The notes under the pieces: generated by a model
Seen by the model: only the letters and a program-made list of their open reading frames with translations
Databases searched by the model: none
Told to the model about the DNA's origin: nothing
Shown here: positions 80 through 23,114 of the stretch, piece by piece
Numbering within the stretch: position 1 is the stretch's first letter
Layout of the letters: every line of letters starts with the position of its first letter
Position numbers and translations under genes: made by a program
Source: Jimgerdemannia flammicorona
Taxonomy: Eukaryota
Direction: 5' to 3'
Length of the DNA: 40,289 nucleotides
NCBI GenBank assembly: GCA_003990765.1
Contig: RBNJ01000124.1
Location: 1 to 40,289, forward strand

Positions 80-80
80 T

Positions 81-579: not shown

Positions 580-1110
580 TAATTTATCTCTAAAATATTC
601 TTTTCATTCAAACTCTCAAGTTTCTATAATTTGTATTTCCTTATACTGTATAATTTATATCATTATATTCTCTCAATAATATCTCTTGATATATCTAAAG
701 TCTCTTAGAACTACTTCTCAGAAATGGACTAGAGCTGGCTTATCATCTTTGAATAACTTATTAACTTATTTGACAATTGTGATCTAAGTATGAGAGAGCT
801 GGCACTCTCTGATCCAGTCTTCTTTTCCCATCTCTGGCTATAAGTTTAGTAGCTGTCTCAACTTGAAGTATTCTTGAAACTTAGTCTGATTTTGGTAGAT
901 CTTGAAATGTGAGATTTATAACAAATATATCTGGACTATACTCTAGATACTATTAAAGAATTATTCTATAATTGGTAGTTCAGTAGTATACTATTGTCTT
1001 TCTATAGCTCATTATATAGCACTGGTGATCTTGAGAACTGCAAAAGTACTTTATTGATTAGTTATAATACTTCTTGAGTCAGTTTTGATAAATAGTAGTA
1101 AGGATGATTA
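580..1110 (-). pseudogene. Decayed accessory ORF downstream of pol in Gypsy A
   Basis: Minus-frame translation with revertible stops: QEYFKL(R/G)QLLNL*PEMGKEDWIRECQLSHT*ITIVK*VNKLFKDDKPALVHF*EVVLRDFRYIK. Lies between the integrase and the PPT. Boundaries are approximate. Confidence 0.6.
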
Positions 1111-2345
1111 TGCCTAAGAGTTTTTATAGCCAAAAGGTAATTTCTTTTATATCTTATATCAAGTAAGATTCTTTCTACTTAGGCTTCAGCTTTTGTGATC
1201 ATGAAGCTTCTACTATATTCTGATATACCAGAACTTTGTCTTCTATCTTAATAATCTCTAGAGACTTGTAAATCTTTTCAGTATTATTCTATTATAGTAT
1301 CTATACTCTGGTTATATAATTCTCAGTCTTCTTTCTAATTTAATATAGTCTCTATATTTTTGTATCTCTATATTTCTATATAGCATCTCTATTAGATAAT
1401 AAGGTTTCTTGAGAACTTCTTCTCTAAATAACATCTCTCAAGAGATAAAATAGGTACTTTGTGATCAGATATCTCAGAGCATAGATAATGCTATTGGCAG
1501 ATAGTGATCTCAGTTTTCATAGTTATTACAGATTTTAGTGATGATATTCTTGAGAGTCTTATTAGTTCTTTCTGCTTATTTATTTCTCTAAGGATAATAG
1601 ACTATAGTCTGAGCAGTGGAAGAGGAGAGCCCAGCAGGAGCCAGAGGAGTAAATCCAGAGCCAGTGTCAAAGCAAATAGAAGATATATAGAAGAGTATAT
1701 ATAAGAGAGATGAATAAAGAATATAACAAAAAATGTATCAGTCATTTACTACTATATAAAAATATAGTCCTTATATATAAAATATGATATTTCAAATAGG
1801 AGAATATGCTACAACTCAGTGTTAACTGAATTAGGAATCACATAATTACTAGAGATAAGCAGAGATAAAGAGAGAGTCAATTCTAATTATAGGATAAAAA
1901 TCACAAATAAATACAAATAAAACAAATCTAAATCAAGATTAAAAAACATCTGCAGACCCCAGAGAGATCTCACACTTGCTTCAGAGTCTTGGCCTTACTC
2001 TGCTCTCCTCTGCTGTCTTTGGTCCCTTACTTTACTTAGACTTACTATAGCTTGCTCTATTTCAGCCTCACCCCTCACTTATGCTCACTCCTCCAGGGTC
2101 TGCAGATGTTTTTTAATTTTAATTTGGATTTGTTTTATTTATATTTATTTGTGATTTTTATCCTACAACTAAGATTGGCTCTTTCTTTATCTCTACTTAT
2201 CTTCAGTAGTCATATGGTTCCTAATTCAGTTCACCCTAAGTTGTAGCATATCCTCTTATTTGAAATATTATATTTTATATATAAGGACTGCATTTTTACA
2301 TATATAGTAATAAATGGCTAATGTATTTTTGGTTATATTCTTTGT

Positions 2346-3290
2346 TTGTCTCTCTTATATATGCTCTTTTATATATCTTTTATTCACTTTGACACTAGCT
2401 CTGGGTTCACTCTCCTGGCTCTCACTGGGCCCTCCTCCTTCACTACTATACCATCTACTCTCAGGGCCTCTACCTCTATTGATGAGGTTATGGATGAGAT
2501 TCCTCCTCCTCTCCTTCCTCTTGCTTTTATCTCTGCCACTGTCTCATTTGAGACCTATATCTTATCTGTCATCCTTTCCCTCTCTCTGAACCTTTGCCTG
2601 TCTGGTTGTCTACTCTTCTCTCAGTTCCAATTAGTCCTTACTCTTTCTGCCAAGAAAGCTTATCTTTACTGTAACATTGATGTCATTGCTCTGCCCACTG
2701 TCTGCTACTCTATTCTTTCTGAGGCCTGCCACCAAGCCCTCTCTGAAGAAGTTCATACTGCCACTACTACTGCTAAGCTTATTACTACCAATACTGTTAC
2801 TGCTTCTGCTACTGCCACTTCTGCCTCCTTCCACCATATCTGTGCCTCCTTTGTGGCCCTCACATCCTCCCACTTCATGAATGCTAACCCTTTCTGTGGC
2901 TTTGCCATCTATGATGTTTTCTCTACTACTACTGATATTGATACTATTTGTTACTTTCTCTTTGCTGGCATCTCCTTTGTTACTCATCTTTATGAGCAGA
3001 AAATAGCATATACTACCACCACTGCTTGCACTACCACCACTACTCCCCTGTCTGTCTCCTCTGAGGTTTTGATCTCTGAGGCCATCTACACTAAAGCCTA
3101 TGCTACTGCTTATACTGAGGTTTATTTCTTTGCCACTACTGCTGCCAAGACTCTTGTCAAGATCTCTGCTAAGCTCAATAGGGCTTTTTCAGCCTCTTCT
3201 CAGTCTCCCTCCCCTACCAAGGCCTCCTCCTCCATTCCCTCTGCCCCCAAGCATGGCTGCCAACTTGGTTCTTACCCTGTCAGGACTTGA
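2346..3290 (+). pseudogene. PLE ORF1-like open stretch (Ala/Thr/Ser-rich), decayed
   Basis: 314-aa open frame in the ORF track, just downstream of the 5' pseudo-LTR and upstream of the RT. A plausible ATG is at 2490. No recognisable domain. Confidence 0.45.
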
Positions 3291-4329
3291 CTCTATGCTG
3301 TCTGCTCTGATCACCTCTACCATACTTACTGGTACCTGGTCAAGTCTGTCTGTTCCCATGGTAGTGTCCCTTATACTGCTGTCCCTTCAGCTACTCACTC
3401 TCTCTCTACCTCCTCTACTGACTTCTCCTCTGTCTCCTCTACCCATATTCCTGAATGTAAGAGCTATACAAAAGTCTGTGGCCACAAGGTCTGGCACTCT
3501 GACAGAGTGTACTCCTGCTCATTGGGCTCACTATCTTCAAAAAAAGTCAGAGAGAAGGAGAAGGCCTCCTGCTCTTAAACTTCTCCCCAGTATAGTTCTT
3601 CCCCAGATCTCTGTTTCTTCTCAGATTCTATTGTTGCTTCTGGTATGCCCTGAGTGATTCCTCATGCTGTCCCCCCTTTCTCAGTTATTTGTCCTGAACT
3701 TTTGGGTTTATTCTTCTCTTAGAACACTTTTGTCTCCTCCTTTTTCTTTAGCTGACTGCTTCCTTTCTCCTCTTCAAGTCTTTGCTTTATCCTTGGGTCC
3801 TTGCTTTGTCTTCTCTGCAACTCCCTCACAATTCTCCTTCACCAATCTGGCTCATCTTACACACTTCCATCATTCTTGACTTTGTTATCTTCTTTAAGAA
3901 TTATAGTGAGATACTCTCTTGCTATTATGTCTCTAGTAATTAGGTCCCTCCTCCCAATGTCTCTTCACACTGTATATTTCTTGACATGGCTTACTCACTA
4001 TCTGTTTCTAGATATACTTACTCTTGCTTAGTTTCAGACTATATCATACATACTGTACTTAAATCAATCAAGTAACTGCCTCTATATTTACTCACAGTTA
4101 CTGATAAGAATTAGGGTTTTATACTTATTCCTAAGTCACTCTATCTTGACAGCCTTTCTGCCCTCCTTTGAGCTGTAGTTTATAAGCCTAGTGCTCTTAG
4201 ATTGGATGAGGTTCTCACTTTTCTTCAGATTTCTCTGGCTTATACCAGATTACTTTCAGATTCTTTGTTTACAAACTCCATTTTTAACTTCTTCCAGGAC
4301 TCTTTGTCTTTGTCAGACATTTGTCTTCT

Positions 4330-5160
4330 GGTTTTTTATGCTCTTCCTAAAGTCTACAAGCCTACTTTGGCTTAGCATCTCATTATAGCTGCTTATAGCT
4401 TACTCACTACTGAGATTGTAAAGTAGTTATTCTACTTCTTTCTCTCTTGGATAGCTCTTCTACAATACTGTCTTGGGCCTGAGTACATAATTCTTCATGA
4501 CACTCAGGAGCTCACCCTTCTCTACTCTACCATTATGCCTATTCACCATTTTTCACATTTGGCCTCTAGTGACTTCTCTTTCTTCTATACTGCTATTTAT
4601 TTTGATAAGATCAATGATTGTCTTCACTTTTTAGGTTCTATTGTTTTTCCTTTAGATTTCCCAGTTTTGCTAGCTTCTATTGTTGAGCTTATACATACTC
4701 CTCATCTACAGCTCCAACTATTTTAAGTTGGCCCTTAACTCCTTTTATCAGACCTCTGGTATTACTATAGGAATAAATTATACCTCCACCCTTGCTAACC
4801 TTATTGGCCTGACCCATGAACTTCATATGATATGTGATCCTTCTTCACCTCTTTCTATCATATTCTGGGCTGGAGATATCTTCTTTTACTGATATATTGA
4901 TAACTTTATTATTCTTACTATTGCTAGTATTGATATTTCTAGTGTGTTTTATAGTATCTATCTATTCCATCATTCTATTACTTGGGTGTGTGGTATAACC
5001 AATATTCTCTTTTTAGACCTTTCCATTTCTCTTTCTCCCTTCTGAACTGTTGTTTATTCTCATTTCTCCCATTTCCAACAGTTCTCTGACTTCTGTTCCA
5101 ATCATCCTCATCACACTCTTCTTGAATACATTTATGGTAAGATATATCATCTTATACTAT
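4330..5160 (+). pseudogene. PLE reverse transcriptase core and thumb, disrupted
   Basis: PLE RT motifs occur in the correct order but with stops and frameshifts. Confidence 0.8.
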
Positions 5161-7029
5161 ACTGCTCCTGTCATTCTGATTGGGTGTCTGCTATTCAGGT
5201 TCTTGATAACTTCATAGTTCATCATTGTACCTACTCTATTTCTATCATTCATGATCTGCTTGCTTCTGTTGAATGGTGTATTGTTTGCTCTTCCCTCCTC
5301 TCTTTTCTTTATCTCTCTTTCCTTCTCTCCCTCCCCTCTTACTCTCTCCATACCCCCTCTTCATTTCCACTCCTGATTCTTATTATATTATTTGATTATA
5401 CTTGCTAGATTGTACAATGTTCTGATACTATTCTGCACTCTTCTCTTTTTTACCATAGACTTTATCTCTTTCTTAATATTTTCTGATTACTTATTCATAT
5501 CTTTCTTCTATTTCTTCTTTAATCCATTACTCTTATTTTGTGTTTTCATTATCTTCTGATATCTTCAGCTCTGCTAGAGAGGATTAAAAAACATCCTTGC
5601 TCCCTCTGGAGTCTTGTGCTTACTCTGGAGTCTCAGCCTTACTCTACTTCTCTCTACTATCTTGGGCTTCTTGCTTCACTTAGGCTCACTATAACTTATA
5701 CTATTTCAGCCTCACCCCTTACTCACACTCATCTCTCTGGAGTCTGTAGATGTTTTTTAATCTCAATTCAGATTTATTTTGTTTGTATTTTTTTGTGATT
5801 TTTATCCTGCAACTGGGATTGACTCTCTCTTTATCTCTGCTTATCTCTGGTGGTCATGTGATTTCTAATTTGGTTTGTCTTGAGTTGTGGTACATCCTAT
5901 TATTTGGGATATTATATTTTATATATAAGGACTGTATTTTTATATAGTAATAAAAAGCTGATGCATTTTTGGTTATATTCTTTATTCATCTCCCTTATAT
6001 ATATATACTCTTCTATATATCTTCTATTTACTTTGACACTGGCTCTGAGTTCACTCTCTTGGCTTCCACTGGGCTCTCCTCCTCCACTCCTATGCTGAAT
6101 CTTGTACTTTTTATAGAGAATCTCAAAGAACTGATTCATAAATTCTGTTTCTCTATCTATAGTTACTTATAATAGGGTCTTAAATTGATAGATGATTTCT
6201 TTGTGGTAGAAATCAGTAATTGATTATATATTGACTTCCTTGAGAGATTCTGTCTCTATCTATTTTGTAAAAAGATCTATAATGACAATAATATATTGGT
6301 TGCCAGTCAAAGTCAAGGATAGAGGACTAATTATATCTATTATAATATATATAAAGAGTACTGATTCTATATATACTGATCCAGGAATTTGATTTTATTA
6401 ATCTTATTTCTATTTCTAGTATTTGTCACAGATCTTGATAAATTGTCTGATATTTTTCTCTATTTCTGACCACTATATTATTCTTCTTGCTTTATTATAT
6501 ATATTTGTTTCTTCTAGATAGTTAAGTTTATATACTAATTTCATTACTTGCTTCTTGTATTTAGGTATAACTAGTAGCTTTTCTTTCTTTAGTATTTCTC
6601 TATTAGTCTCAAATTATTTCTATATTCTATTGATAATTATTTATATCCATTCTTCCAGATATTGGAGTATCTTTAACTATTCTAGATAGGTGATAATTCC
6701 ATAGTAAAGTTCCTTATTCATAATTGATTTGCTGGTTAAGAGTTCTTCAGGATATCTGTGAGAGAGTATCTATATTGGCATTAGTTCTTCCAAAATAGTA
6801 TATAATAGTTATATCATAGATTTGTAACTTTATAATCGATCTAACATAGATTTCTTTAAGTTATCCAGTAGTCAGTAGTTAGATAAGAGCTAAACGGTCT
6901 GTTTGAATGGTGAAGTATCTTTCTACAAGATAGTAGTAGAACTTCTCTATGGCAAGATATTCCAACTTATAGAATTCATATACTTTTTCAGCTTCTCAAG
7001 TTTCTTAACTAAGATATGTAATTATATAT

Positions 7030-8614
7030 TATAATAGTGATCTCAGAATAATGATATCAGTATAGAAGACAGTCTTTCTTTATAAGCTACTAGATCATAG
7101 TACAAGAAGATCATATGGTATAACTCACCTAGGCTACAAGATGAACAATAATGACCAACTGTGAGTCATTGTAACTACAAGATAGACATCTTGAGGAATA
7201 TAAAAGAAAGATTGAGAAATTATAGTAATAGTAACTTAAACAAGACTTACAGAAATAGCTCAAAAGACTTACTATAAACAAAATATCTACTACTCACCAA
7301 ACCTCAAGATCCAGAAACTACCAAGGCTCCTTAGTCCAGAAAAAAAATATTCCAAGACATTAGAAGAGCTATGAGGACTCATATAAGAAGGACTCCTAGC
7401 CTCAATTTAGGTACTGGTGATCCTTATCATTATATTCTCTACTACTATGAAATGGAAACAGAATCACCATTATTACCAAATGCCTCTAGATATGATAGAA
7501 ATATGAAATAGGAAACCTTCTCTACCAGGAATTTCCTCAGATCAGTTACCAAGAAATACAAAATACCATTCCTATGGATATATATGAAATAAGGATAGCT
7601 AAGAAGATTTATTAGATCTTTAGGCATCAATCTCTAACTTGGAGTATACTAAGATCTCAGACTTCAAGAAACTATCAGCTTACCATACCAATGTACTAGA
7701 GGTCATAGTGGCCACAGAAGCCCAGTCTACTATTACTCTCAATAGTGATGAGATAGGAGAGTTCTAGAACTCTATCCTTGAGAACAATCTTGATCAATTC
7801 CTGTAAGAATTGATCTCAGCATTCCAAGGCCCCAGTATCTAGATTAGACCTCTCTAAGATCTTATATTTATCCTTTATTTTATGAAAGAGAATTTCATAG
7901 ATTGGAGAGCTCCAGATCTTCTTGTTTTCCCTACCACTGAATGAGATGATATCACCTGTGATGATATCATTAATGATGATATCATCCTGTATGATATGTG
8001 TGAAGTACATGAAATATATGATATATATGAAATGGTCAAAACATTCATAGACCTCATCTCCTTTGAAGATATCCTATCTCTGACCTCTGGCCTTGATAAT
8101 AGTGATGAAGATAAAGTCCCTATAGTCCTGAACTTTCTGCTCTAAGTTTTTGGTAATACTGAATTCTATCAGTATTTTTTTCTTATATAACTGTTATTCT
8201 TCTGGTATTCTGATCTTATATAACTCAGAAATTCTTTTGGTATTCTTTTTCTGTACTACTAAAATTCTACCAGCATTCTGAACTTGTACTTATAATCATA
8301 GTTTTCTATATTCTTATATTTTATTTGGTTATTGGAATTTATATTATAACTTAGCAACCATTAAATTATATTTTATATAAATATTCCTCTTATTTCCTTT
8401 GAAATAAAGTTAGTTTCAGTTCACTTATTCTCAATTCCATGCAAGCAATCTAAGAGATAACAAAACAGTTTAAAGATAAGAAGTTTAAGAACTATAAGAC
8501 CTTAGGAAGATACTCCAATAAGAACTTGCTTATAACAAACTTGAAGTTAGTTTAAGAGATATACCTTGAAGAGAATCTGATATATTTGAAGGACTCAGTA
8601 ACCACTACATGATA
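7030..8614 (+). mobile_element. Solo LTR of family B inserted in the RNase H of Gypsy A
   Basis: Reverse-complement match to 21640-23114 and 28796-30394. Termini TATAA (TGTAA) and TGATA (TGACA). 4-bp TSD ATAT at 7026-7029 and 8615-8618. The RNase H sequence rejoins across it. Confidence 0.85.
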
Positions 8615-9799
8615 ATATTCTACTTTGTCTTTCTTCTGGATCAGAACTACTTCTATATACTTACATCTATCTACAGAATAAATTCTTGAGTCTAATTAGA
8701 TCTTCTGAGGATAGGTATCTAGGTCAGCCTAATCTTGAGTTTATCAAATACTTTCTGTTATCTGCCAGTCTATTGAAACTTGACATTCTTCTTGTTTAGT
8801 TTATAGATTGGGCCTACAATATTGGAAAATCCTTTGATAAATCTGCAGTAGTATGAGGCTAGTCCCATGAAGGCTTAAACTTCAGTAACTGTGGTAGATC
8901 TTGAGTATACTGCTACTGCTTGAATTTTGAGAGAGTCTGTATATATTCTATCTCAGTTAATGATATGGTCAAGATAAGAGATCTCAATTTCTGAAAATTT
9001 ATACTTTTTAAGCTTGATATATAAGTCATACTATCTTAGCTTCTCTATCATCTGCTGGATATACTGTAGATATTTCTCAGCTATCTTGCTATAGATAATA
9101 ATATTATCTATATAAACTATCATCTATCTTCTCATATTATAGTAGAAGATTTTATTTATTATTTACTGGAAGCTTACTAGTATATTATACATTCTGAATA
9201 GTATTTATAGATAGATATAGATTCTGTTTAGGGTGATAAAGACTGATTTCTCACTTACTACTTCTATGAGAACAATTTGGTAAAATTCTAAGTATAAGTC
9301 CAAAGTACTGTAATACTGTACTTTATTTTCCAGAGTTATTAGGATATTACTGATGAGGGGCAATGATTGACAATCCTTCTTGGTAACTAGGTTGAGCTTT
9401 CAATAATCAATGTAGAGTCTTGGGGTGAATTTTTCTAGCTTGCTTGCTTTCTTTATGGCTAATATTACTAGTGAAGCTCAAGGATAGCTAGCTTCTTTGA
9501 TAATACTAGCTTCTTCCATCTACTTGATTTCTTCTCTGAGCCATTCATAGTAGGTTGGTAGAATTGGTTTTGCTTTTTAACAGATTGGTTCAGTATCTCC
9601 TGTATCTATATAATAATAGTAGTGTGGAGTCTTTTTCTTAATATTCTTGAAGTCTATAGCCAGAATATCTTTGAATTCATAGAGTATTTTCTTGAGTTCC
9701 TTTTTGAGTAGAAATTTATTTTTAATAATATAACTATACTTATTTGTAGTTTTCTTCTTCTTATGATCCAGTTTGGTAATCTTAGTACTAGTGAATACT

Positions 9800-10200
9800 C
9801 TTCTTTCTATGGATTTGAATTCCTTTCTTTTCTCTCTATTTTCTCTAACTTCTTAACTTCTATGATTTTTGGCTGAAGAACTGAGAATATTAACATTTAT
9901 ATCAGTCAGTAGTTCTTCTTAATTAGAAATGAAATTGTAGGGTTGTGGTTTCTAGTAATGAGTAGTATTTCTCCATATAATCTAAATTAATGACTTTCCC
10001 TTCAATAGTAATCTCACTCTTAGCCAGACTACTTCTTGTCTTAAGAATTCTGACATGGTCTTTTGGAATAGTTATCTCTAGATTTATTGTAAGTAGAGTA
10101 GTTGTCTAGAGCTTAAGTATAATTTCTTCTACTGTAACAATATCTATTTTAGCTACATTCTCTAACTTATATTCTAATAGAACTATATTAGGGTGAATCC
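9800..10200 (-). pseudogene. dUTPase domain remnant in Gypsy A pol
   Basis: KTRSSLAKSEITIEGKVINLDY...RNHNPT, colinear with the Gypsy B dUTPase. Lies between protease and RT. Confidence 0.8.
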
Positions 10201-11738
10201 TCTGAATCTTGACCTTGATTTCTTCTTCATTATTACTATCTTTTAGAAGAGCTGGTGACTCATCATCCTCTTTCTCTTTCTCTTCTCTTACTTGCTTTTC
10301 AAGAGCCTTCTATATTTTTTCATAGTATATCTTCTTGATACTACTGGTATACTGGTAGCAATCATTGATATACTCCATATAATATATCTTGATTACATGG
10401 GAGTAGACTCCTTGTGGTATATATTCTTCTACAATCTTCTTATACCAGTCCTCTTCACTAATCCATCCAACTTTCTTCTTTATTTTCTGAGTAGTCACTA
10501 TATAGACTTCTTCTTGCTCACTTTCTTCTTTCTCTACATATCTCTAGTACATAGTACTCCTTTATTGATATTGATAGAAATTCACATCTTCTGTCCTTTG
10601 TAGATAATTTGCATCTTCTGGGCATTCAGATTAATTATTGCTCTAGCTTTATAAAACCACTAGTTGCTGATGAGAATGTTATAGTTGGTTACATTAGTTA
10701 CAATGATATCTATTAGAATTGTTGCTCTTCTAAACTTGATGGGAATATCCTGAATCTTTCCTAGAGGTGTGGCTCTTATACTATCTATTGTGACAAATAC
10801 TAATTTAGTTATTTCTTCTATCTCCCAACCTAGATGATCTGCTGTTTTCTTGCTGAGAAGACATCCTTCTGCTCCAGTATCAATAATTACTTTAAAGATT
10901 CTGTCCTTGATCTAATAGATTGCATAGGCAGAGATCTTGTAATTATCTTCACTTTCTTCTTCTGAGTCTTCTTGAACATTATTGGCCTTAGTTATCTTTC
11001 AACCTTACTCCTTGATTGTCTCAGTAAGTCTATATCATATTTGTTATCTAAATGTGAGAATTTCTACCAGCTGGCCAAAAGTTGTATTGACTTTTTATTA
11101 ACTGAGGTCCTTGAAGATATCATACTTGAAGATCTTAGTTTTGTAAAGCTTCTACTCCTTTTCTCCTTTAATAACTAGAGTAGTTTCTCAAATAATATCT
11201 TGAACAGTCTGTTTCAGCTCTATATCTTGATCTATTTCTTCAGCTTGGCTTTCTGTAGTAGTCTCTATCTATTTTTCTATAGAGTTCTTCTTGGGTCTCT
11301 CTGATAATCTCTTATAGGATTACTTGTAGACATTCTTCTTAATAGTCTTAGTAGGATAAGCTTTCCATTCTTCTTCATCTAATTCTCCAATCTCTTCAAG
11401 GTAATAGTATTAGCCTGTTCTTTATTTTGAATAGTATTGCTTAACTGGACTATAAGTGCACAACCTCTAAGCCACCAAAATCACATGTCACCCTTGGAAC
11501 AAGCCACTGAAATTACACATGACCTCTGAACAAATCTGGAAATCACCTGCTTGATCACGAAGCTGAGTCAAACTGAAGTCACAGCGCACAAAGCTGAGTC
11601 AATACGAAGTCACAGAATACAAGAATTACATAAACGGAATCTTACCAATTAGGACCAAATACATATATACTGAGCACTGAGACGCATCAAATCAGAGAAC
11701 CAAAACAAACAACAACCACAACTTCCAAATACACAAAC

Positions 11739-12836
11739 ATGACCACTGAGATCTACAACTACATCCGCACTAACATTTGAAATGTCATTATCAACCGAGC
11801 CACACCCCCTCTGCCCCTCATGAATATCCATAGCCTGGCACCCCTCTACTTCATAGAAGTCCAATGGAATGCCCTGAACATGCTTAGTGAGGCCCACCGA
11901 ATCAGACAAATCTCAAGCTACTACCAGATCGGCCGCCTCCTGGAAGACATAGTCGAACATCACTATGATACAGACATTACCCAGATGTCTCAACACCAGA
12001 AGCTCATCACCCGCAAACATTGAGAACTCTTCTATGAGTATAACACCTTTATTCCCCGCCTCTGAGTCACTATCAGTGAAATGGTTGCTACCCTGTCCTA
12101 TGGCCAAATTGATGACATGATACAAGAACTCAACCACAAGTACCTTGAATATGTGCAGACTACAGACAGAACCTTCCCACACCCTGATGACCATATTCTG
12201 CAAATGCCTCAAGTCAGATACACTATGAAGGATGTCTACGATATAATCCACTTCGACGAAGATGAAGCAGAAGACAATGACCCCTCTGATGCCGACATGA
12301 CCTCTAGCCAAGGATCTCTGCCAACCCTGATCACACTGCCAAACTTGCCAATGAACTTGCAATAGTTCATAACTGCATACGAGACTTATTGGGACAATGA
12401 CCACTGGCATGAATATCAACCCGCGTTTACCCCCGACTACTTCAACTACAATGAAGAAACCAGAGAACACAACCTGTACCTCCAGACAACCCTTGAGATT
12501 GAACCAACCACTCCACCATCTGAGTATGAGCAACATGAACTACAGCCACCAGCTTACTACAATCCTGCAACTCATAGTGCTGTAACCTATAGAAGGTATG
12601 CAGACAGTGAATCCGATGAAAGCAAAGACAATACATCCATCCTTCGCCCACCAACACCTTATCCAGCCTATGAGACAGATGATGCTATCCTATGGGATGG
12701 AGACGAAGTTCTAATGTACTATTATCTCAGCGAACAAGGAGAAGTAATTCGCAAACCATTATTTCTAGACAACTACTTCATCAGAGATGATACAATCGAT
12801 GGTGATGTCATCGAAGACTACCCAGACAGTGCCTAA
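11739..12836 (+). pseudogene. LTR-encoded 365-aa ORF of unknown function with 4 premature stops
   Basis: Single frame from ATG 11739 to TAA 12836, containing track ORFs 11820-12023 and 12081-12365. No frameshift. The interrupting stops are three TGA and one TAG, each revertible to CGA or CAG. The C-terminal half is acidic and Tyr/Pro-rich. Confidence 0.8.
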
Positions 12837-13025
12837 ACTCATAAATAGCCTAGCAGTCATAGTATAGTTAGATTAGCCTTGTACGATATGACTGTGAACT
12901 AACTCAGCAGTCAGATGATCTCTTGATATATCAGATCACACTTGTACTATGTGACTTCATTCCGACTCAGCAAAGCACTTAGTGCTACACCCATATTTAG
13001 CATAGTCCAGATAGCCCCTCACTAG

Positions 13026-13033
13026 TATAAATA
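13026..13033 (+). promoter_or_regulatory. TATA box of LTR C
   Basis: TATAAATA followed by a C-rich tract, downstream of the ORF and upstream of AATAAA, as expected near a U3/R boundary. Confidence 0.55.
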
Positions 13034-14053
13034 CCCCCTCCCCCAGACCTCAGAATCTCAGACTTGAACAATCTGAACATAACTCCTGAGCACTTCTCCA
13101 CAATATCCCTTCACACAAATACTTCTAGTATAGTAATATCATGAATAGTAAATAAACCTATTCCATAACCCACAAACTACTCTTAAGTAAATCCGCTCCT
13201 TGTTAGGTCCCACTCCTAACCCCATCATGAAATTCCCTAATTGGTTATTGTCTGCAGCAATACACCAATTCAACTAAGCTGGTCTTAGTTTCTTGAACTT
13301 CCTGAAATACGGAAAATCCTGAACATCCAGAACTAGTCTGGAAAAGGACTTTGGTTGAGACATCAACCCAATCTTGAAATCAATAAGCATAGAGGACATA
13401 CTCCATATGAAATTGATCTTGATCATAAGAAAACAGTCTTCCAGAACATCCAGAATATCCAGAAAACCCTTCCAGAACTACATAACAGTTACTCTAAAAA
13501 GCAACCCTCTTACATGGACCTTGTGCTTGATTTTACTTATATATTTATATAAGTAGTAGTCTTCTTCACAAATATAGTAAGTATCTCTCTTCTTATCTAA
13601 GGTGATAGCAAACTTCTGGACTGGGCAGCAGTCTCTTCCTCTAATTTTCTTTACTATATCTTCTAAGTGAGTAGTTATTTTAGCAAACTTCTTAGTAAGT
13701 TCTTCCATAAGATCACTGTTTCTCTACTGCTCAGTAACTCTTAGCTGAGATGTATTTCAATTGATCACTATAGTAGGAATCACACTAGTTGCCTTAAGTG
13801 CTTCAATTTTGACTTCAGTAACTTTTTCTATTATATAGTCTTATAGATATCTGACTATCCAGTATTGCTGGACATAGGTGATCTTTTATACTAGATTCAG
13901 AACTACTAATGATAAGCAGATAGCTATGGCTATCTCTGAATAGACTCTTTTTATAAAGGTTGCTTCAGCTACTTAGTCTCAGATGATATTAGCATAATCT
14001 GCAAGAATTATCTAATATCAGATTCTGATATAGAATATGTTTAGATCCTTACT

Positions 14054-14055
<2 letters not shown>

Positions 14056-14091
<36 letters not shown>

Positions 14092-14478
14092 GTCTCAAGA
14101 ACTTCTACTTTATTACCAAACTATCTATGTTATACTAATATAAATGAATCCCTCACCCAATCCTATAAGGAAGCTCCCTCCTCTCTATATCATTCTCTTG
14201 AAATATTATTATTCCCTCTGCTACTCCAATTCTTCTCTCACTTTTTCTACAAATTATCTCTACTAGTTACTACTAATACTATACTAGCACTATACCCCCT
14301 CTACTATCTATTCAACAAGTCTAACATCAACCACTCCTATCTAGCAATCCTTATTTCTAGTATCAACTGTTGATCATCCTCAAATATATATAACTAATAT
14401 CCAGCAAGCCCAACCCAAATAGCTAGTATCCATCCCAACATCAGCTACTCATCTCCTACCCCCCTTCCACCAATCTTT
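14056..14478 (-). mobile_element. 5'-truncated LINE 3' end with poly(A) tail, inserted in the gag of Gypsy A
   Basis: Poly(T) at 14056-14088. TSD ATCCTTACT(T/C)A at 14045-14055 and 14479-14489. The purine-rich minus strand resembles the 3' part of the LINE at 19000-19900. Confidence 0.75.
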
Positions 14479-14847
14479 ATCCTTACTCATTTCTTGATAT
14501 ATTATATTGAGCTAATTCTTTAGAGCTTGCTTAATCTCATCTGTATAGTAGATAGTTCAGAGCCAGACCTTCTATACTACTAATATAGTATTATTATCAT
14601 TTTTTACATAGGTTACAGCTATAAATACTACTCTTACTAGTTCTTGGAGACTGAAGAGTATGAGGACTACTTATTGTCTTGCTGTCAGAGTCCTTATAGT
14701 AGTATATTGTTTAAAGTTATCAATGAATATAATGATTAATTTATCTGAAGTATATCTGTAGAATACTGATAGTCTTATATCTATTTTGTCTAGATGTCTT
14801 AATTTGATTTATATAGTTGTTTGAGTGATAGTAATTGTTTATTATTC

Positions 14848-14898
14848 AGCTTGAAAGTGAGAGATTTGTCTTGAATCACTAGCTAATGGGCACTAAGT
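14848..14898 (-). promoter_or_regulatory. PBS and leader of Gypsy A, shared with Gypsy B (28745-28795)
   Basis: The minus strand reads ACT-TAGTGCCCATTAGCTAG directly after the LTR end, consistent with a decayed TGGTGCCCATTGG. The primer tRNA is not assigned. Confidence 0.55.
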
Positions 14899-15235
14899 TG
14901 TAATGTAGTAGATACATAACTATAGAAATATGTTAGATTTCTATATCTTGAAAACTTGATCTTCTTTGACTTCATAGAGTCCTCAGAATACAGTGAATGA
15001 GTTCAAAGTATATCTACCTACAGGCTTACTAGTTCTCTTGTTTTTTCTTTACTTTGAACTATTTTGATCTGAGGTTTATTTACTTTAGATACTGGAGATA
15101 TTTATATAGTTTGCTAGCTATAAGGTGACTAAGGTATAACTATATTTCCTGTAAGTCATTCTTTACAAGTATTAATTCTTGACATCTGTAAAATCTTGAC
15201 ATTTGTGAATATTTTAACATTTGTTAAAGTTTTTA
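14899..15235 (-). repeat. 5' LTR of Gypsy A, truncated by the LINE
   Basis: Starts TGTAATGTAGTAGAT and aligns with 81-~440. Abuts the PBS-like sequence. Confidence 0.8.
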
Positions 15236-18200: not shown

Positions 18201-19372
18201 AGTTAGGGGGGATACTATATTTCTCTTATTAGGTAAGTATCAATCCTGAATATCTACTGGCTGCTAAAGCTCTGATATCTGATATACTACTTAGACTTTC
18301 TAGTATAAGTAGTAAAGAAGTTGCTGAAGATAGCTATGAACTAGATTTGAGTAATAAGAAAGAGCCAGATAAGTTGGGAGGTCTTGAGACTCTAGTAGAT
18401 AGGAGAGATATAGATCTGATAGACTTTCTGAAGATGTTGTATTACCTTAGGGCTTGATGGTTAAAGAGAGCTATTGAGCTATAGGGAGGAGAGTAGGTAC
18501 TGTTGATGCAGATAGTCTAAGAGGTGAGGTTCTCTTCTAGAGAATTCTCTGATGATTTATTATCTATAGTTAGACTGAGAGATAGTAAGTACTTATGATA
18601 CAAGAGATTCTAGTATGAGGTAATAGAGAGAGCTCATCATATTGGCTTTTATTGACATAGTAATAAGAAGAAGACTCAATTGAGTTCTACAATAGTAGTG
18701 GGATAGACTTTTGTTGAGCAGTTCACTACTAGTGAACTTTGATATTAGTATAAGTATAGAGTATTAGTAGAGAGTGGGTCAGGATCTGTAGCCATTAGGC
18801 TGATAGACAGCCAGTATTAGTAAGACTTAAGACTGAGCTAGAGTATGATCTTAGAGTACTGAGGTATAGCAGTAGCTTTCTTTGAAGTTCTGAATAGTGT
18901 GGTGATATATCTTGAGAAAGAATATTATATTGAACTTTCAATCAGGATATTTGGTAGAAGATAACAGCTTTGAGTATAAGGATTGTTTTAATATAGAACA
19001 GAAAAAAGAGATTATATAGATACTTAAATATTAGCTAAGTGAGTATAAAATACTTAGTGACTTTTGGAGAAGAGTTGGAGGTTGTCTGGGGGTAAGTAGT
19101 ATACTGATAGAGAGGGGAGTAGATGAGATAACTTAAAGGAGTAGTTGATAGAGTATATTGATAATGAGTAGCTCACTGTTGGGTAGACATTAATAGTATA
19201 GGTAGAGCTAGTAGATACTATGTAACTATATATTAGAGAATGGGAGACAGATGGTCTTAGGAAAAAAGATAACAAGATGAGAGAGACTAATGGTAGATAT
19301 TATGTTTAGCTGGTGAAGAGGGTGGGGCCCTCAGAGAGGTCACTATTAGTATCTGATAGAAGAGATATATGA

Positions 19373-19383
19373 AAAAAAAAAAT

Positions 19384-19414
<31 letters not shown>

Positions 19415-19423
19415 TAAAAAAAA
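19373..19423 (+). repeat. A-rich tract flanked by a 15-bp direct repeat (poly(A)-only retro-insertion)
   Basis: AGAAGAGATATATGA at 19358-19372 and 19424-19438, around an A-run with TAAAA(A) units. Confidence 0.65.
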
Positions 19424-19503
19424 AGAAGAGATATATGAGAAGAGTAGTAGATATATTGCAGTAGTTAATGATATAGTTGTTTTTGAGAGAGTGAGGATAA
19501 GAG

Positions 19504-19789
19504 TAGTGCTCTCAATGAATTAAATCAAAGGTCTAATTTGATTTAAGATTCAATTTGAACTCTATTTTCAAAATGTAATAACTCAACAAAAACATGTTTA
19601 AATTTAATGATTTTTAGCTTATTAGATTCCTCTATATAAGAGAAATCTAACAAGCTAAAAATTATTAAATTTAGACATATTTTCATCAAGTTATTATATT
19701 TTGAAAAATAGTATTCAAATTAGACCCTCAATTGGATTCAAATTCAATTCAATTTGATTTGAATTGATTCAATTCATTTAGGAGTACTA
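19504..19789. mobile_element. Fold-back MITE (hAT-type), copy 1, inside the LINE 3' end
   Basis: Ends TAGTGCTC and GAGTACTA. The whole element is a near-palindrome centred ~19635. The 8-bp flanks GATAAGAG and GATAGGGA differ only by transitions. Confidence 0.78.
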
Positions 19790-19982
19790 GATAGGGAGAA
19801 GAGAGTGTATTAGGGTAGAGTAGAGTTGGATAGGTTGAATTGAGACTATTGATATGGTATGAGAACTATTATTTATTATAGAATAGTTAATAAAGAGGCC
19901 TAGTACTCATAAATAAATAAAAAAAAGAGACTTCTATCTTTTTTACAGATAATGATATCACTATTCTGAGGTCACTATTACA

Positions 19983-20260
19983 ATATATAGTCAAGAAAAT
20001 CTCAGAAAAAGATAATAAGAAAGATAACCTTTAAGAACTACTTAAGAAATATAAAGATGTTTTTTAAGAATTCTAAGAACTACTACCTACCTAAGCAGTA
20101 GAATATAATATTGGAACTATTTCTAATTCAGACCCTCTCTACTATAGAATCTATTAACTAACTCAATCTGAGCTAGAAATTTTCAAGGAATAATTAGCAG
20201 AATTAGCAAGCAAAGATCTCATCTATCTATTAAAATTATTATAGTATACTAATTCTCTTT
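19983..20260 (+). pseudogene. RT N-terminal fragment of a different Ty3/Gypsy family (Tf2/chromovirus-like), inside an inverted segment
   Basis: Translation ELLKKYKDVF...VEYNIGTI.NSDP.YYRIY*LTQSELEIFKE*LAELASKDLI...ILF is typical of the Ty3/Gypsy pre-RT/RT1 region. Confidence 0.65.
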
Positions 20261-21598
20261 ATAGAAGACAGCCTTTTCTTATAAGTTACTAGATCAGAGC
20301 ATAAGAAGATCATATAACATAACTCACCCAGACTATAAGATGAGCAATGATGACTAACTATAAGTCATCATGACCATAAGATAGATATCTTAAGGAATAT
20401 AAAAAAAGAACTAAGGAACTATAGTAGCAGCAACTTAAATAAGACTTACAAAATCCCAAAATAGTTCAAAGACTCACTATAAATAAAATGTCTACTATCT
20501 ACCAAACCTCAAGATCCAGGAACCACCAAGGCTTCTTAGTTCAAGAAAGGATATTCTAAGATATCAGGAGAGCTATGAGAACTCACACTAAAAGGACTCC
20601 TAGCCTTAACCTGAGTACTGATGATCCTTATCACTTTATCCTTAACTACTATAAAATGGAAACAAAGATCACTATCACTACTGAATACCTTTGGATGTAG
20701 CAGAAATATAAAATAAGAAACCTTCTCTATCAGGAATTTTCTCAGACCAGTCCCCAAGAGATATAAGATGCTACCTCTATGGATATATATAAATTGAGAG
20801 TAGCTAATAAGATCTATCAGATCTTCAGATATACACCTTGATCAATCTCCAACTTGGTATATACCAGAGTCTCAGACTTCAAAGAATTGTCAGCCTGCTA
20901 TATAGATGCACTAGAGGCCATAGTGGCTACAGAAGTCCAATTCACTATTACTCTCAAAAGTGATAAGATAGGAGAGTTCTGGAATCCCATCCTTGAGGAC
21001 AACTCAGATTAATTCCTATAAGGATTAATTTCAGTATTCCAAGGCCTCAGTATCTAAGTTAGACTCTCTCAAGATCTCACCTTTATCTCCTACTTTGCAG
21101 AGAAGAACCTCATAGATTAGAGAGCTCTTAATCTCCTTGCTCTCTCTGCTGCTGTCAAACATAATGATATTATCCTACTAATTGATGATATATGTAAAGT
21201 ATATAAAATATGTAACATATGTAAAATATGTAAAATATATGAGATGGATAAAATGTTCACTAATCTTATTTCCTTTAAAGATATCCTATCTCTAACCTTT
21301 AGCCTTAATAGTGATGAAGATAAAGTTCTCAGGATTTTGAATATTCTGCTCTGAGTTCTTTGTGTAACTGTTATACTTCTGGTATTCTGATCTTATATAA
21401 CTCAAAAATTCTTTCAGCATTCTGATCTTATACTATCAATTATACAGATACTTGAATTTGTACTTACAACTAAAGTTTTCTGTATTCAAGTACCTCATTT
21501 ATTTAGTTATTGGAATTTATATTTAGTTTTATAGCTTAGTAACTATTGAATTATATTTTGTATAAATATCCCTCTCATTTCTTTGAAATAAAGTCAGT
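20261..21598 (+). repeat. LTR family B copy, missing its first ~32 nt (found inverted at ~19950-19982) and ~200 nt at the 3' end
   Basis: Colinear with 7062-8415. Confidence 0.82.
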
Positions 21599-21639
21599 AG
21601 TTAAGTAATAAAGTATTAAAAACTCAAGTCTCTAACTAC

Positions 21640-23114
21640 TGTCACGTAATAGTCACTGAGTCCTTCAAATATGCCAGATTCTCTTCAAAGTGTATCTCTT
21701 AGACTAACTCAAGTTTGTTATAAGCAAGTTCTTATTGGAGTACCTTCTCAAGGTCTTATAGTCCTCAAACTTTTTATCTTTAAACTGTCTTGTTGTCTCT
21801 TTAGATTGCTTGCAAGGAAGTATGTGTATTGCACTGAGTAGACTGACTTTATTTCAGAGAAATAAGAGGGATATTTATACAAAATATAATTCAATGGTTG
21901 CTAAGATATAAAGTGAAATATAAATTCCAATAACTAAAATAAAATACCAGGACAGAAAAGCTACTAAGTTCCAGGGTTGGTACTGATAGTTGTATAGGTT
22001 CAGGATACTGATATAATTTGGTGTTACATCAAAATACCAGTACTAGCATTATTTAGTATAATTAAGAGACTTAGAGCAGAATGTTCAAGACTATAAGGGC
22101 TTCATTATCAGAGGTCAGAATGTCTTTAAAGGAGATGAGGTCCACAAACTTATCATTATTATATGTTTTACATATGTCATGCAGGATGATATCATTACCA
22201 ATGATGTTATCATGTTTAGCAGCAGGGAAATCAGGGGTTCTCCAATCTATAAGGTTCTCTTCTACAAAATAAGAGACAAATGTGGGGTCTTGGGGATCTA
22301 ACCTAGATGCTTGGGCCTTGGAATACTGAGATCAATCCTTACAGGAATTGGTCTGAGTTGTCCTGAAGGATGAGATACCAGAAGTCCTCTACTTCATCAC
22401 TATTGAGGGTAATAGTGGACTGGGCTTCTGTAGCCACTCTGGCTTCTAGTGCATTGATACAGCAGGATGACAGGTCTCTGAAATCTGAGACTCTAACATA
22501 CTCCAAGTTGGGGATCGACTATGGTACATGTCTGAAGATCTGATGAATCTTCTTAGCTATCCTTATTTCACATATATCTATGAGAGTGGTATCTTATAGC
22601 TCTTGAGTACTGGCCTATGGGAACTCCTGGCAGAGGAGGTTTCTTATTTTGTATTCCTGCCACATTTGGAGGCATTCAGTAGCAATGGTGATCCTGGTTT
22701 CCATTTCATGATAGTAGAGAATATAGTAATAAGAGTCACTAGTACCCAGGTTGACACTAGGAGTCCTTCTTGAGCAGGTCCTCATGGCTCTTCTGATGTC
22801 TTGGAACATCTTTTCTTCGACCAAGGTGTCTTGGTGGTTCCTTGACCTTGAGGTTTGGTGGGCAGCAGACATTTTATTTGTAATGAGTCTTTTGAGCTAT
22901 TTTGAGATTAGTGGGTCTTGTTGGTTGCTATTACTACAGTTCCTTGATCCTTCTTTTATATTTCTTAGGATGCTTATACTGTGGTCACAATGACTCACAG
23001 TTGGTCATTATTGCTCATCTCATATGCTGTATAATCTTCTTGTACTTCGATCTGGTAGCTTGTAAGGAAAGACTGTCTTCTGTGCTGATATCATCATTCA
23101 GGGGTCACCGTTAC
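21640..23114 (-). repeat. 3' LTR of Gypsy B
   Basis: TGTCA and TTACA termini. Matches 28796-30394. Retains a few CpGs. Confidence 0.88.
22071..22872 (-). pseudogene. LTR-B-encoded ORF remnant, present in all four LTR-B copies
   Basis: Track ORF 22615-22872 continues through TAG/TAA stops: MWQEYKIRNLLCQEFP*ASTQEL*DTTLIDICEIRIAKKIHQIFRHVP*SIPNLEYVRVSDFRDLS, then an acidic tail. The copy at ~7502 reads YEIGNLL. Confidence 0.72.

What the first reader, a model, noticed from the sequence alone, without database searches (positions are those of the whole stretch)
580..22872. One conserved accessory protein family shared by three Ty3/Gypsy families at two different positions
By-eye alignment of repaired translations. 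LTR C (~11915-12100, +): SSYYQIGRLLEDIVEHHYDTDITQMSQHQKLITRKHRELFYEYNTFIPRLRVTISEMVATLS. LTR B (~22660-22460, -): WQEYKI(G)NLLCQEFPQASTQELRDTTLIDICEIRIAKKIHQIFRHVPQSIPNLEYVRVSDFRDLS; the Gly is preserved in the copy at ~7502. Gypsy A post-pol ORF (~876-680, -): QEYFKL(G)QLLNLQPEMGKEDWIRECQLSHTQITIVKRVNKLFKDDKPALVHFREVVLRDFRYIK; here the Gly is inferred from AGA. Shared pattern: Y-x-[IL]-G-x-LL, a 16-19 aa spacer, I-x-[KR]-[KR]-x3-[LI]F, then spaced hydrophobic residues. I see no DNA similarity between the three, so conservation is at the protein level. Inference: an uncharacterised third gene of this dUTPase-bearing lineage that moved from the env-like position into the LTR.
Basis: partly seen in the sequence, partly recalled or inferred. 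Interest (0 to 1): 0.85.

Follow-up and report, generated by a model that had tools for sequence, protein, structure and literature searches.

The report
Protein genes hidden inside retrotransposon LTRs
Two different long terminal repeats in this decayed cluster of fungal-type Gypsy retrotransposons each carry a real, previously undescribed protein gene, but it is not proven that these two, and a third look-alike stretch, belong to one family.

Summary
The three translations are present at the stated places. The B segment lies in a 271-codon sense ORF wholly inside the 1.5-kb LTR of Gypsy B. All four LTR copies in the window carry it, broken by transition-type stop codons. Thirteen relatives, most of them intact ORFs, exist in public protein sets. 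They have no Pfam, PDB or viral-fold match, and the model of one shows a confident helical N-domain. The C segment lies in a 365-codon ORF inside a 2.06-kb solo LTR with a 5-bp target duplication; one partial relative is known. Both ORFs start 245-289 bp into the LTR, downstream of a TATA-like box.

Homology among the three is not established. hhalign gives 0.8% probability for B versus C and 7% for B versus A. Shuffle tests give p of about 0.01-0.04. However, C is the best non-self match of the B-family profile in the whole six-frame window, collinear from near the start codon. The A stretch is a weak match in fully decayed DNA, and no gene can be shown there.

Verdict: LTR-embedded accessory genes are real, B-C kinship is plausible, and the A link and the "moved into the LTR" story are unproven.

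The parts
80..430 (-). Gypsy A 3' LTR (about 350 bp)
   Evidence: 80-412 matches 14898-15228 at 83.5%. The ends were read. TATA at LTR positions 141/143 and AATAAA at 169.
680..882 (-). It is a fully decayed stretch between the end of pol (about 1050) and the 3' LTR.
   Evidence: Translation confirmed. The 116 codons read (595-942) contain 9 stops. Weak ungapped match to the B family: hhalign probability 7.2%, P 0.005; profile score -1.5 bits, the 7th non-self hit.
7023..8615 (+). LTR B, copy 1 (solo, nested in Gypsy A). It carries the ORF remnant 7317-8145 in three frames.
   Evidence: 11 stops and two frameshifts. It retains the Gly in KYEIGNLL.
11451..13514 (+). LTR C: a 2064-bp solo LTR inserted in the gag region of Gypsy A. 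The 5-bp target duplication TGGAC lies at 11446-11450 and 13515-13519. The ends read TATAAG...CTTACA.
   Evidence: A/B collinearity brackets the insert.
11739..12836 (+). LTR C ORF: 365 codons with 4 premature stops (3 TGA, 1 TAG).
   Evidence: The partial relative P0001 was reported at 67% identity over 59% of the 424-residue query (window 11790-13061), E 3e-104.
11564..11669 (+). Promoter-like stretch upstream of the C ORF: a tandem duplication carrying two TGAGTCA sites (11564-11570 and 11595-11601), then TATATA at 11664-11669, 70 bp before the ATG.
   Evidence: The function is inferred, not shown.
14898..15228 (-). Gypsy A 5' LTR
20260..21598 (+). LTR B, copy 2. It carries the ORF remnant 20488-21354 in a single frame with 9 stop codons counted over 20488-21354, the natural terminal stop included.
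   Evidence: (profile score 302 bits).
21642..23116 (-). Gypsy B 3' LTR (1475 bp, TGTAAC...GTGACA). The polypurine tract AAGAGGAAGA lies just upstream.
22071..22872 (-). LTR B ORF in the 3' LTR, at LTR positions 245-1046. It has 5 premature stops and one frameshift near 22290.
   Evidence: (288 bits). Intact relatives are P0002 (271 aa) and others.
22954..22997 (-). TGAGTCA (22991-22997) and a TATAAAAG box (LTR position 157), about 85 bp upstream of the B ORF's ATG. The TATA box is invariant in all four LTR B copies.
   Evidence: The function is inferred.
23117..28794 (-). Gypsy B interior (gag, protease, dUTPase, RT/RNase H, integrase)
   Evidence: dUTPase PF00692, E 4e-23, at 26061-26744. 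Integrase_H2C2 PF17921, E 1e-13, at 24359-24814. Collinear with Gypsy A.
28795..30401 (-). Gypsy B 5' LTR. It carries the ORF remnant 29322-30141 in two frames.

Best explanation
**What is there.** The region is a nest of decayed Ty3/Gypsy LTR retrotransposons. Two different long LTRs each contain a complete accessory gene in sense orientation.
- LTR B is 1.5 kb and is present in four copies. Two of them flank a dUTPase-bearing Gypsy element.
- LTR C is 2.06 kb and is present as one solo copy.
- The B gene is 271 codons and the C gene is 365 codons.
- In this window both genes are dead, broken by C>T and G>A stop codons. Elsewhere, intact relatives of the B gene exist, as does one open but partial relative of the C gene.

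**Shown.** Each ORF lies wholly inside its LTR, starting 245 (B) or 289 (C) bp from the LTR's 5' end. A TATA-like box lies 70-85 bp upstream of each start codon. The B protein folds in silico into a helical domain of about 150 aa, followed by a low-confidence, acidic tail. It resembles no known family.

**Inferred mechanism.** The gene is a self-contained cassette in the upstream (U3-like) part of the LTR, with its own TATA box. It probably ends at the LTR's AATAAA, which lies at LTR position 1264 in B. Every LTR copy, whether 5', 3' or solo, could therefore make a short LTR-only mRNA. The protein would act in trans for the element, most likely as a regulator or adaptor. Its structured helical head and acidic tail with short hydrophobic motifs suggest a transcriptional activator or an antagonist of host silencing. 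I give about 25% to that specific role.

**Kinship.** The B and C proteins are probably distant relatives (about 60%), but this is unproven. The A stretch is at best a remnant (about 35%) and cannot be shown to be a gene.
For: **Structure of the LTRs.**
- Direct repeats, termini and the polypurine tract for B.
- The 5-bp target duplication and TG..CA-type ends for C.

**The B ORF is a real gene.**
- All 4 of 4 LTR B copies match the family profile, with scores from 45 to 302 bits per piece.
- The word-indexed searches and the exhaustive search together found 13 family proteins: 4, 4 more and 5 more. The exhaustive scan of 1.84 billion representatives found 5 at E<=0.001.
- Family members down to 26-31% identity still keep open frames of 175-342 aa.
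- AlphaFold2 of P0002 with the 13-sequence alignment gives pLDDT block means of 79-95 over residues 61-160.

**The C ORF.**
- 365 codons with 4 premature stops.
- The relative P0001 matches at E 3e-104.

**Mode of decay.** 27 of 29 aligned premature stops sit at Q, W or R.

**Promoter-like signals.**
- The TATA box is invariant in 4 of 4 B copies.
- Positions of TATA and AATAAA within the LTRs.

**B-C kinship.**
- C is the best non-self hit of the B-family profile in the six-frame window: 4.9 bits, E 0.31, profile positions 5-146 against 11694-12128.
- C ranks 1st of 1485 pieces for P0008 and 2nd of 1485 for P0007.
- BLASTP of P0008 versus C gives E 0.018, and of P0007 versus C gives E 0.035.
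- Predicted helices fall in the same order when laid on the sequence alignment.
Against: **Against B-C kinship.**
- hhalign finds no significant B-C similarity: probability 0.86% with the 4-sequence profile and 0.8% with the 13-sequence profile.
The core reaches p 0.088 (264 of 3000). The 243 residues downstream show nothing (2700 of 3000).
- With the window's own B copy and with P0002, C ranks only 218th and 170th of 1485.
- The narrow 4-sequence profile does not pick out C: -1.2 bits, E 21.
- The exhaustive profile search returned no C-like protein.
- Of the family's best-kept residues (W-x-x-Y-E-I-G and H-Q-x-F-R-H-x-P), C keeps Y, I, G and F. A keeps Y and F.
- The C model is unreliable (mean pLDDT 30.5), so the helix correspondence is weak evidence.

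**Against the mechanism.**
- TGAGTCA is not enriched in the window: 9 found against 7.8 expected.
- No transcript data exist. Whether the ORF lies in U3 or in R is not known.
- The contigs that encode the database relatives could not be inspected. That the ORF sits in an LTR is therefore shown only for this window.
Confidence: 0.6

Rival explanations
1. One accessory protein family is shared by A, B and C. It lay after pol, as in A, and entered the LTR in B and C. One way this could happen is an upstream shift of the polypurine tract, which makes the region part of U3.
For: - A and B are sister elements, 65-68% identical in DNA across pol.
- The A stretch is the top Smith-Waterman hit of the window's own B segment among 1485 non-B pieces: 40, against 39 for the next.
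- A-B scores 44 against 21+-3.9 in shuffles.
- hhalign gives P 0.005 over 65 ungapped columns.
- In that register the DNA is 38.5% identical against 26.8+-3.7% at other offsets; 5 of 1319 offsets reach it.
Against: - hhalign probability is only 7.2%.
- The profile score is -1.5 bits, the 7th non-self hit, E 27 in the window. It is -3.7 and -3.0 bits with the other profiles.
- 66 of 3000 shuffles reach the A score.
- A scoring scheme that allows for C>T and G>A decay did not lift A above controls: z 2.2 against up to 3.3 for controls.
- Only about 200 codons fit between the end of pol and the LTR in A, against 271 in B.
- No similarity extends beyond the 65 columns.
- The register was chosen by eye, so the pairwise statistics are inflated.
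- C's parent element is unknown.
Confidence: 0.25
2. B and C carry unrelated orphan genes acquired independently. The shared pattern is chance, helped by similar helical, amphipathic composition.
For: - No significant HMM-HMM similarity.
- The regions downstream of the N-domain show no similarity.
- Other places in the window score as high as C against my own simple core-profile scan, for example 26384-26115 and 9643-9374 with z of 4.7-5.0.
- Extra ORFs of LTR elements are known to be acquired repeatedly (abstract of PMC5408684, seen in the listing).
Against: - C is the top non-self profile hit in three of four profiles.
- The alignment is collinear from near the start codon for about 130 residues.
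- Both ORFs have the same position and orientation in the LTR.
Confidence: 0.3
3. The LTR ORFs are not genes. They are chance open frames in non-coding LTR DNA that gene callers picked up.
For: - All database relatives come from short contigs (567-4848 bp). They carry either no name or 'hypothetical protein'.
- There is no expression evidence.
Against: - Frames of 175-342 aa stay open in members only 26-47% identical.
- Conservation is blocky, with near-invariant motifs.
- The family alignment yields a confident helical domain.
- In the decayed window copies, 27 of 29 stops are at Q, W or R codons of the intact protein.
Confidence: 0.05
4. The A stretch is not A's own sequence. It is a decayed fragment of another ORF-bearing LTR nested between A's pol and its 3' LTR.
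For: - The locus is a nest with five LTR insertions of the ORF-bearing kinds.
- A has about 640 bp between the end of pol and the LTR, against about 380 bp in B.
- A weak anchor, A 651-618 to B 23378-23345 (E 0.086), would place about 300 extra bp exactly where the stretch lies.
Against: - No insertion boundaries, target duplication or further LTR similarity could be found.
- The anchor itself is not significant.
Confidence: 0.1

Closest known systems
MMTV superantigen gene (sag), the 'LTR ORF' of mouse mammary tumor virus
   Same: A complete sense ORF for an accessory protein lies inside the LTR. It is therefore carried by both LTRs of a provirus. (The abstract of PMC2118998 and other titles were seen in the listing. 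The U3 location is recalled.)
   Different: - There is no sequence or fold likeness: no Pfam hit, no Foldseek PDB match at E<=0.001 (best E 1.0), and no PDB sequence hit.
- The host here is a fungal-type retrotransposon, not a vertebrate retrovirus.
- Here a TATA box sits directly upstream of the ORF.
- The protein here has a helical head and an acidic tail. It shows none of the features of a type II membrane glycoprotein (that description of Sag is recalled).
ORF0 of rice Retrosat2 / RIRE3 / RIRE8 (Ty3/Gypsy elements with LTRs over 3 kb)
   Same: An extra ORF of unknown function in long-LTR Gypsy elements. It diverges far faster than pol: about 10% similarity between the ORF0 proteins of elements whose ORF1 proteins share over 60% (passages of PMC3485330). 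Such fast divergence would explain weak B-C-A similarity.
   Different: ORF0 lies upstream of gag-pol in the interior of the element, not in the LTR. The host is a plant. No sequence comparison was made here.
Additional ORFs of fungal and animal Gypsy elements: 'brtn' of Botrytis BcGypsy1/Boty, CERV of C. elegans Cer1, shared extra ORFs of bdelloid LTR elements
   Same: Element-encoded accessory proteins beyond gag-pol. CERV is needed for nuclear export of genomic RNA (abstract start in the listing). brtn is an extra ORF in a fungal Gypsy (one passage). The bdelloid ORFs are shared among diverse elements (abstract start).
   Different: None was seen described as lying inside the LTR. No sequence relation was tested.
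dUTPase-bearing fungal Ty3/Gypsy elements (Postia PosPlaTy3, Phanerochaete, Tuber Tmt1)
   Same: Gypsy B has a dUTPase between protease and RT. This is one of the placements described for fungal elements (passages of PMC2864245).
   Different: The passages I read mention 'add. ORF' only in a figure legend and report no ORF in an LTR. The source organism of this window was not determined.

Membership tests
LTR B ORF protein family (P0002-P0014; unnamed) | Significant profile match over the N-domain (profile positions about 1-200) | tested here: met
   For the four LTR B copies of the window: scores of 288 and 291 bits for the two least broken copies, and 45-165 bits per piece for the two frameshifted ones.
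LTR B ORF protein family, membership of the C ORF | Significant profile or profile-profile match | tested here: inconclusive
   - Top non-self hit in the window, but only 4.9 bits, E 0.31.
- E 0.014 when only the two candidates are searched.
- hhalign probability 0.8%.
- 24 of 3000 shuffles reach the score of the N-terminal 150 aa.
LTR B ORF protein family, membership of the C ORF and the A stretch | The family's best-kept residues: W-x-x-Y-E-I-G and H-Q-x-F-R-H-x-P (consensus) | tested here: not met
   C keeps Y, I, G and F. A keeps Y and F, and needs a one-residue shift for the I/L-G position. Most of the signature is absent in both.
LTR B ORF protein family, membership of the A stretch | Significant profile or profile-profile match | tested here: inconclusive
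   - -1.5 bits, E 27 in the window. E 0.036 when only two candidates are searched.
- hhalign probability 7.2%, P 0.005.
- 66 of 3000 shuffles reach the score.
LTR-embedded accessory gene (MMTV sag type) | The ORF lies wholly within the LTR, in sense orientation, and is present in both LTRs of a full element | tested here: met
   The B ORF is at LTR positions 245-1046 of 1475 and is present in the 5' and 3' LTRs and in two further copies. The C ORF is at 289-1386 of 2064. For C the sense orientation relative to its element is not testable.
LTR-embedded accessory gene (MMTV sag type) | The ORF lies in U3, upstream of the genomic RNA start site | not testable with these tools
   Only motif positions are available. 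In B, TATA is at 157 and at 1238, and AATAAA is at 1264. No transcript data.
LTR-embedded accessory gene (MMTV sag type) | Sequence or fold relation to Sag | tested here: not met
   No Pfam family at E<=1 for six database proteins: five of the B family plus P0001, the relative of the C ORF. No PDB sequence hit at E<=1. No Foldseek PDB or BFVD match at E<=0.001.
env-like third ORF of Ty3/Gypsy elements | An open frame between pol and the 3' LTR | tested here: not met
   In A the position fits, but the 116 codons read contain 9 stops and no open frame remains. B and C are not at that position.
Ty3/Gypsy retrotransposon with dUTPase | LTR pair flanking gag, protease, dUTPase, RT and integrase in Gypsy order | tested here: met
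   B: PF00692 with E 4e-23 and PF17921 with E 1e-13, plus LTRs and a polypurine tract. A: collinear translated similarity to B over the whole interior. For C: not testable, because only a solo LTR is present.
Solo LTR (for C) | A discrete insertion with a target-site duplication and TG...CA-type inverted ends, and no internal retroelement genes | tested here: met
   TGGAC duplication. Ends TATAAG...CTTACA, which is one G>A change from TGTAAG. No similarity to B's interior and no Pfam domain. No second copy is present to confirm that it is repeated.

The most novel reading that the evidence does not exclude
Fungal-type Ty3/Gypsy retrotransposons carry a fast-evolving accessory gene family built into the LTR as a self-contained cassette with its own TATA box, an ORF and the LTR's polyadenylation signal. 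Every LTR, including the thousands of solo LTRs a genome may hold, would then be a potential expression unit for a trans-acting element protein. The gene would be shared by distinct LTR families (B and C). In the sister family A it would lie between pol and the LTR, so it would have crossed the LTR boundary, for instance by a shift of the polypurine tract.
Probability: 0.25. Interest if true: 0.75.

Novelty: new variant of a known kind. Interest (0 to 1): 0.55.

Why it matters
LTRs are normally treated as non-coding control regions. Annotation pipelines therefore mask them, which would hide such genes. If the LTR of a retrotransposon holds a complete gene, several things follow.
- Solo LTRs are not inert scars. 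They may keep making an element protein.
- The element has an accessory function, such as activation, silencing evasion or RNA handling, that is unknown for fungal Gypsy elements.
- The LTR boundary becomes a place where genes can enter or leave the duplicated part of the element.

Three literature searches listed no paper describing an ORF inside the LTR of a fungal retrotransposon. I saw only listings and abstract starts, so this does not show that it is absent from print.

Tried and rejected
**Searches for a known family (nothing found).**
- Pfam on the three X-read stretches found nothing. The only hit was a sub-threshold SWI-SNF_Ssr4_N match, 13.7 bits against a cut-off of 27.
- Pfam on six database proteins (five of the B family plus P0001) found nothing.
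- A PDB sequence search with the family profile gave 0 hits.
- Foldseek of the P0002 model against PDB and BFVD gave no match at E<=0.001.
- The ESM Atlas for P0002 gave no hit above 0.83, which is within the range shuffled proteins reach.

**Tests I designed that gave no usable answer.**
- A profile alignment that lets every T or A be a former C or G. It was dominated by AT-rich DNA and did not separate A or C from controls.
- By eye I saw downstream motif matches between B and C: 'P.F..YF...ID', 'FxxP..ILQ..P.Q' and 'RxPTP..PAYExDD'. The downstream profile test did not support them (2700 of 3000 shuffles reach the score). One of them is out of order relative to the predicted hairpin. I dropped them.
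- Homology of A's short LTR to the last 370-400 bp of LTR B. The MAFFT alignment looks suggestive around the TATA and AATAAA. My semi-global score test was inconsistent: z from -0.6 to 4.8 over six pairs. I left it open.

**Other checks.**
- The AlphaFold2 model of the C ORF has mean pLDDT 30.5 and is unusable as a structure.
- A target duplication for the full Gypsy B element was not found: the flanks read TATAA and GTAGT.

- Inspecting the DNA around the database relatives.
- Cluster look-up (switched off).

Full report
**Layout of the region.**
- Self-comparison and translated comparison show a nest of decayed LTR retrotransposons.
- Gypsy A lies on the minus strand, with LTRs of about 350 bp at 80-430 and 14898-15228. 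Three things interrupt it:
  - an element with 466-bp repeats at 1612-6093;
  - a solo copy of LTR B at 7023-8615;
  - a 2064-bp insert, C, at 11451-13514.
- Gypsy B lies on the minus strand with LTRs at 21642-23116 and 28795-30401. These LTRs are 1475-1607 bp long and read TGTAAC...GTGACA. The polypurine tract AAGAGGAAGA abuts the 3' LTR.
- A fourth LTR B copy lies at 20260-21598.
- The interior of B has a dUTPase (PF00692, E 4e-23) and an integrase zinc domain (PF17921, E 1e-13).
- A is collinear with B along its whole interior. The DNA is 65-68% identical and translated identity reaches 53%.
- Nothing else in the window resembles B's interior.

**The observation.**
- The Gly at the copy near 7502 is real.
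- 27 of 29 premature stops in the four B copies align with Q, W or R of an intact relative. The idea of repairing transition-made stops is therefore sound.
- One repair was wrong: it should be W, not Q, in HVP*SIP.

**B is a real gene inside an LTR.**
- A search with one window copy found four proteins of 174-271 aa at E 1e-32 to 1e-66.
- An exhaustive HMMER scan of 1.84 billion representatives with their alignment found 5 proteins at E<=0.001.
- A third search with the wider alignment brought the family to 13.
- Members only 26-47% identical keep open frames of 175-342 aa and share blocks such as W.(E/D)YEIG and HQ(I/V)F(R/H)H.P.
- In the window the ORF runs 22872->22071, which is LTR positions 245-1046 of 1475. 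It recurs in all four LTR copies.
- AlphaFold2 with the 13-sequence alignment gives seven helices over residues 18-150. pLDDT block means are 79-95 over residues 61-160. The acidic tail has low confidence.
- There is no Pfam family, no PDB sequence match, and no Foldseek match in PDB or BFVD at E<=0.001. No Atlas hit is better than the score shuffled proteins reach.

**C is a solo LTR with its own gene.**
- A/B collinearity brackets the insert.
- Reading the junctions against B shows a 5-bp duplication, TGGAC, at 11446-11450 and 13515-13519. The ends read TATAAG...CTTACA, one G>A change from a perfect TGTAAG/CTTACA inverted pair.
- Inside, an ORF of 365 codons (11739-12836) has only four premature stops.
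- A 247-aa database protein (P0001) was reported at 67% identity over 59% of the 424-residue query, window 11790-13061; aligned to the ORF itself it is 68% identical and covers residues 115-364.
- No second copy and no parent element are in the window. 'Ty3/Gypsy' and 'dUTPase-bearing' are therefore unverified for C.

**Shared design of the two LTRs.**
- Both ORFs are in sense orientation and begin 245 (B) or 289 (C) bp into the LTR.
- In B, a TATAAAAG box is invariant in 4 of 4 copies and lies about 85 bp upstream of the ATG. A TGAGTCA site lies 37 bp further up.
- In C, two TGAGTCA sites in a tandem duplication precede a TATATA, which is 70 bp before the ATG.
- TGAGTCA is not enriched in the window as a whole: 9 found against 7.8 expected. 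This is a lead only.
- Downstream of the B ORF, a second TATA (position 1238) and an AATAAA (position 1264) recur in the copies. They resemble the TATA and AATAAA pair of A's short LTR.
- That A's LTR equals the tail of B's LTR could not be confirmed.
- From this I infer a self-contained cassette in the upstream part of the LTR. The inference rests on motifs alone.

**Are B and C related?**

For:
- The B-family profile's best non-self hit in the six-frame window is the start of the C ORF. This holds in three of four profiles:
  - 3.8 bits, E 0.94, with the four window copies;
  - 4.3 bits, E 0.49, with 8 sequences;
  - 4.9 bits, E 0.31, with 13 sequences.
- Among the 1485 of 1788 six-frame pieces that lie outside the B LTRs, C ranks 1st for P0008 and 2nd for P0007.
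- BLASTP gives E 0.018 and 0.035 for those two.
- 24 of 3000 shuffles reach the score of the C N-terminal 150 aa.
- Predicted helices correspond in order.

Against:
- hhalign probability is 0.86% and 0.8%.
- The narrow profile scores C at -1.2 bits.
- C ranks 32nd, 170th and 218th for P0010, P0002 and the window's own copy.
- The separate upstream and core tests reach only 236 and 264 of 3000. The downstream 243 residues show nothing, at 2700 of 3000.
- Most signature residues are missing.
- The C model has pLDDT 30.5.

I put B-C kinship at about 60%.

**Is A related?**

For:
- A-B pairwise score is 44 against 21+-3.9, reached by 1 of 2000 shuffles.
- A is the top hit of the window's B segment among 1485 pieces, but the margin is 40 against 39.
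- hhalign gives P 0.005 over 65 ungapped columns.
- 66 of 3000 shuffles reach the A score.
- DNA identity in that register is 38.5% against 26.8+-3.7%.

Against:
- hhalign probability is 7.2%.
- Profile scores are -3.7, -3.0 and -1.5 bits.
- The decay-aware scoring gave no lift.
- The 116 codons read contain 9 stops.
- There is room for only about 200 codons.
- The register was picked by eye.

I put A-B kinship at about 35%. The 'moved into the LTR' scenario needs it.

**Comparison with what is known.**
- An accessory ORF inside an LTR is known from MMTV (listing). No relation in sequence or fold was found here.
- Extra ORFs in Gypsy elements are known in several cases:
  - rice ORF0, which is internal and fast-diverging (passages);
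  - Botrytis brtn (one passage);
  - Cer1 CERV and the bdelloid elements (abstract starts).
- dUTPase-bearing fungal Gypsy elements are described in PMC2864245 (passages).
- Searches listed no paper on an ORF inside a fungal LTR.

**Left unchecked.**
- The contigs encoding P0001-P0014.
- The source organism.
- Any transcript evidence.
- Cluster membership.
- An Atlas search for C.

Noticed in passing
window 1-79: The window opens with an uninterrupted run of about 79 A, directly abutting the outer end of Gypsy A's 3' LTR. No target duplication for A could therefore be read.
   Followed up: no
window 1612-6093: A nested element with 466-bp direct repeats (1984-2449 and 5628-6093, 80% identical) and an inverted partial copy at 1612-1968. 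Its 3.2-kb interior is strongly C/T-rich on the plus strand. It has long open frames (for example 2322-3290) but no Pfam domain in the three plus-strand frames. The minus-strand frames were not scanned.
   Followed up: partly
window 15229-20260: An AT-rich stretch with strong positive GC skew (0.39-0.53). It has no translated similarity to the interior of Gypsy B. Its nature is unknown.
   Followed up: no
window 19529-19757 and 30986-31215: An inverted repeat pair, 81% identical over 231 bp, lying outside the annotated elements.
   Followed up: no
window 33400-40289: The right end has higher GC (42-50%) and looks like host DNA. An exportin-7-like TPR match (PF25795, E 3e-09) lies at 35283-35681 on the minus strand. 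A sub-threshold Med7 match lies at 33407-33811.
   Followed up: partly
window 11564-11615 and 12949-12969: LTR C holds a tandem duplication of a 21-bp motif, TGAGTCA-N4-GAAGTCACAG, upstream of its ORF. A third, inverted, 2-mismatch copy lies downstream of the ORF. That is 3 matches against 0.35 expected.
   Followed up: partly
window 28760-28800 and 14860-14900 (minus strand): A and B share the sequence just inside their 5' LTRs, CTTAGT(G/A)CCCATT(A/G)GC. This is a likely primer-binding region that does not look like the usual TGG-starting tRNA site.
   Followed up: no
window 21599-21641: Two LTR B copies lie head to head only 43 bp apart (20260-21598 on the plus strand and 21642-23116 on the minus strand). 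The full Gypsy B element shows no matching target duplication: the flanks read TATAA and GTAGT. Its two LTRs are only 78-81% identical.
   Followed up: partly
LTR B positions about 1238-1264 (window about 21853-21879, minus strand) and LTR A positions about 140-170: A TATA box is followed within about 26 bp by AATAAA. This pairing recurs in the B copies and in both A LTRs, about 180-210 bp before the LTR end. It may be the genomic-RNA promoter and polyadenylation module common to both families.
   Followed up: partly
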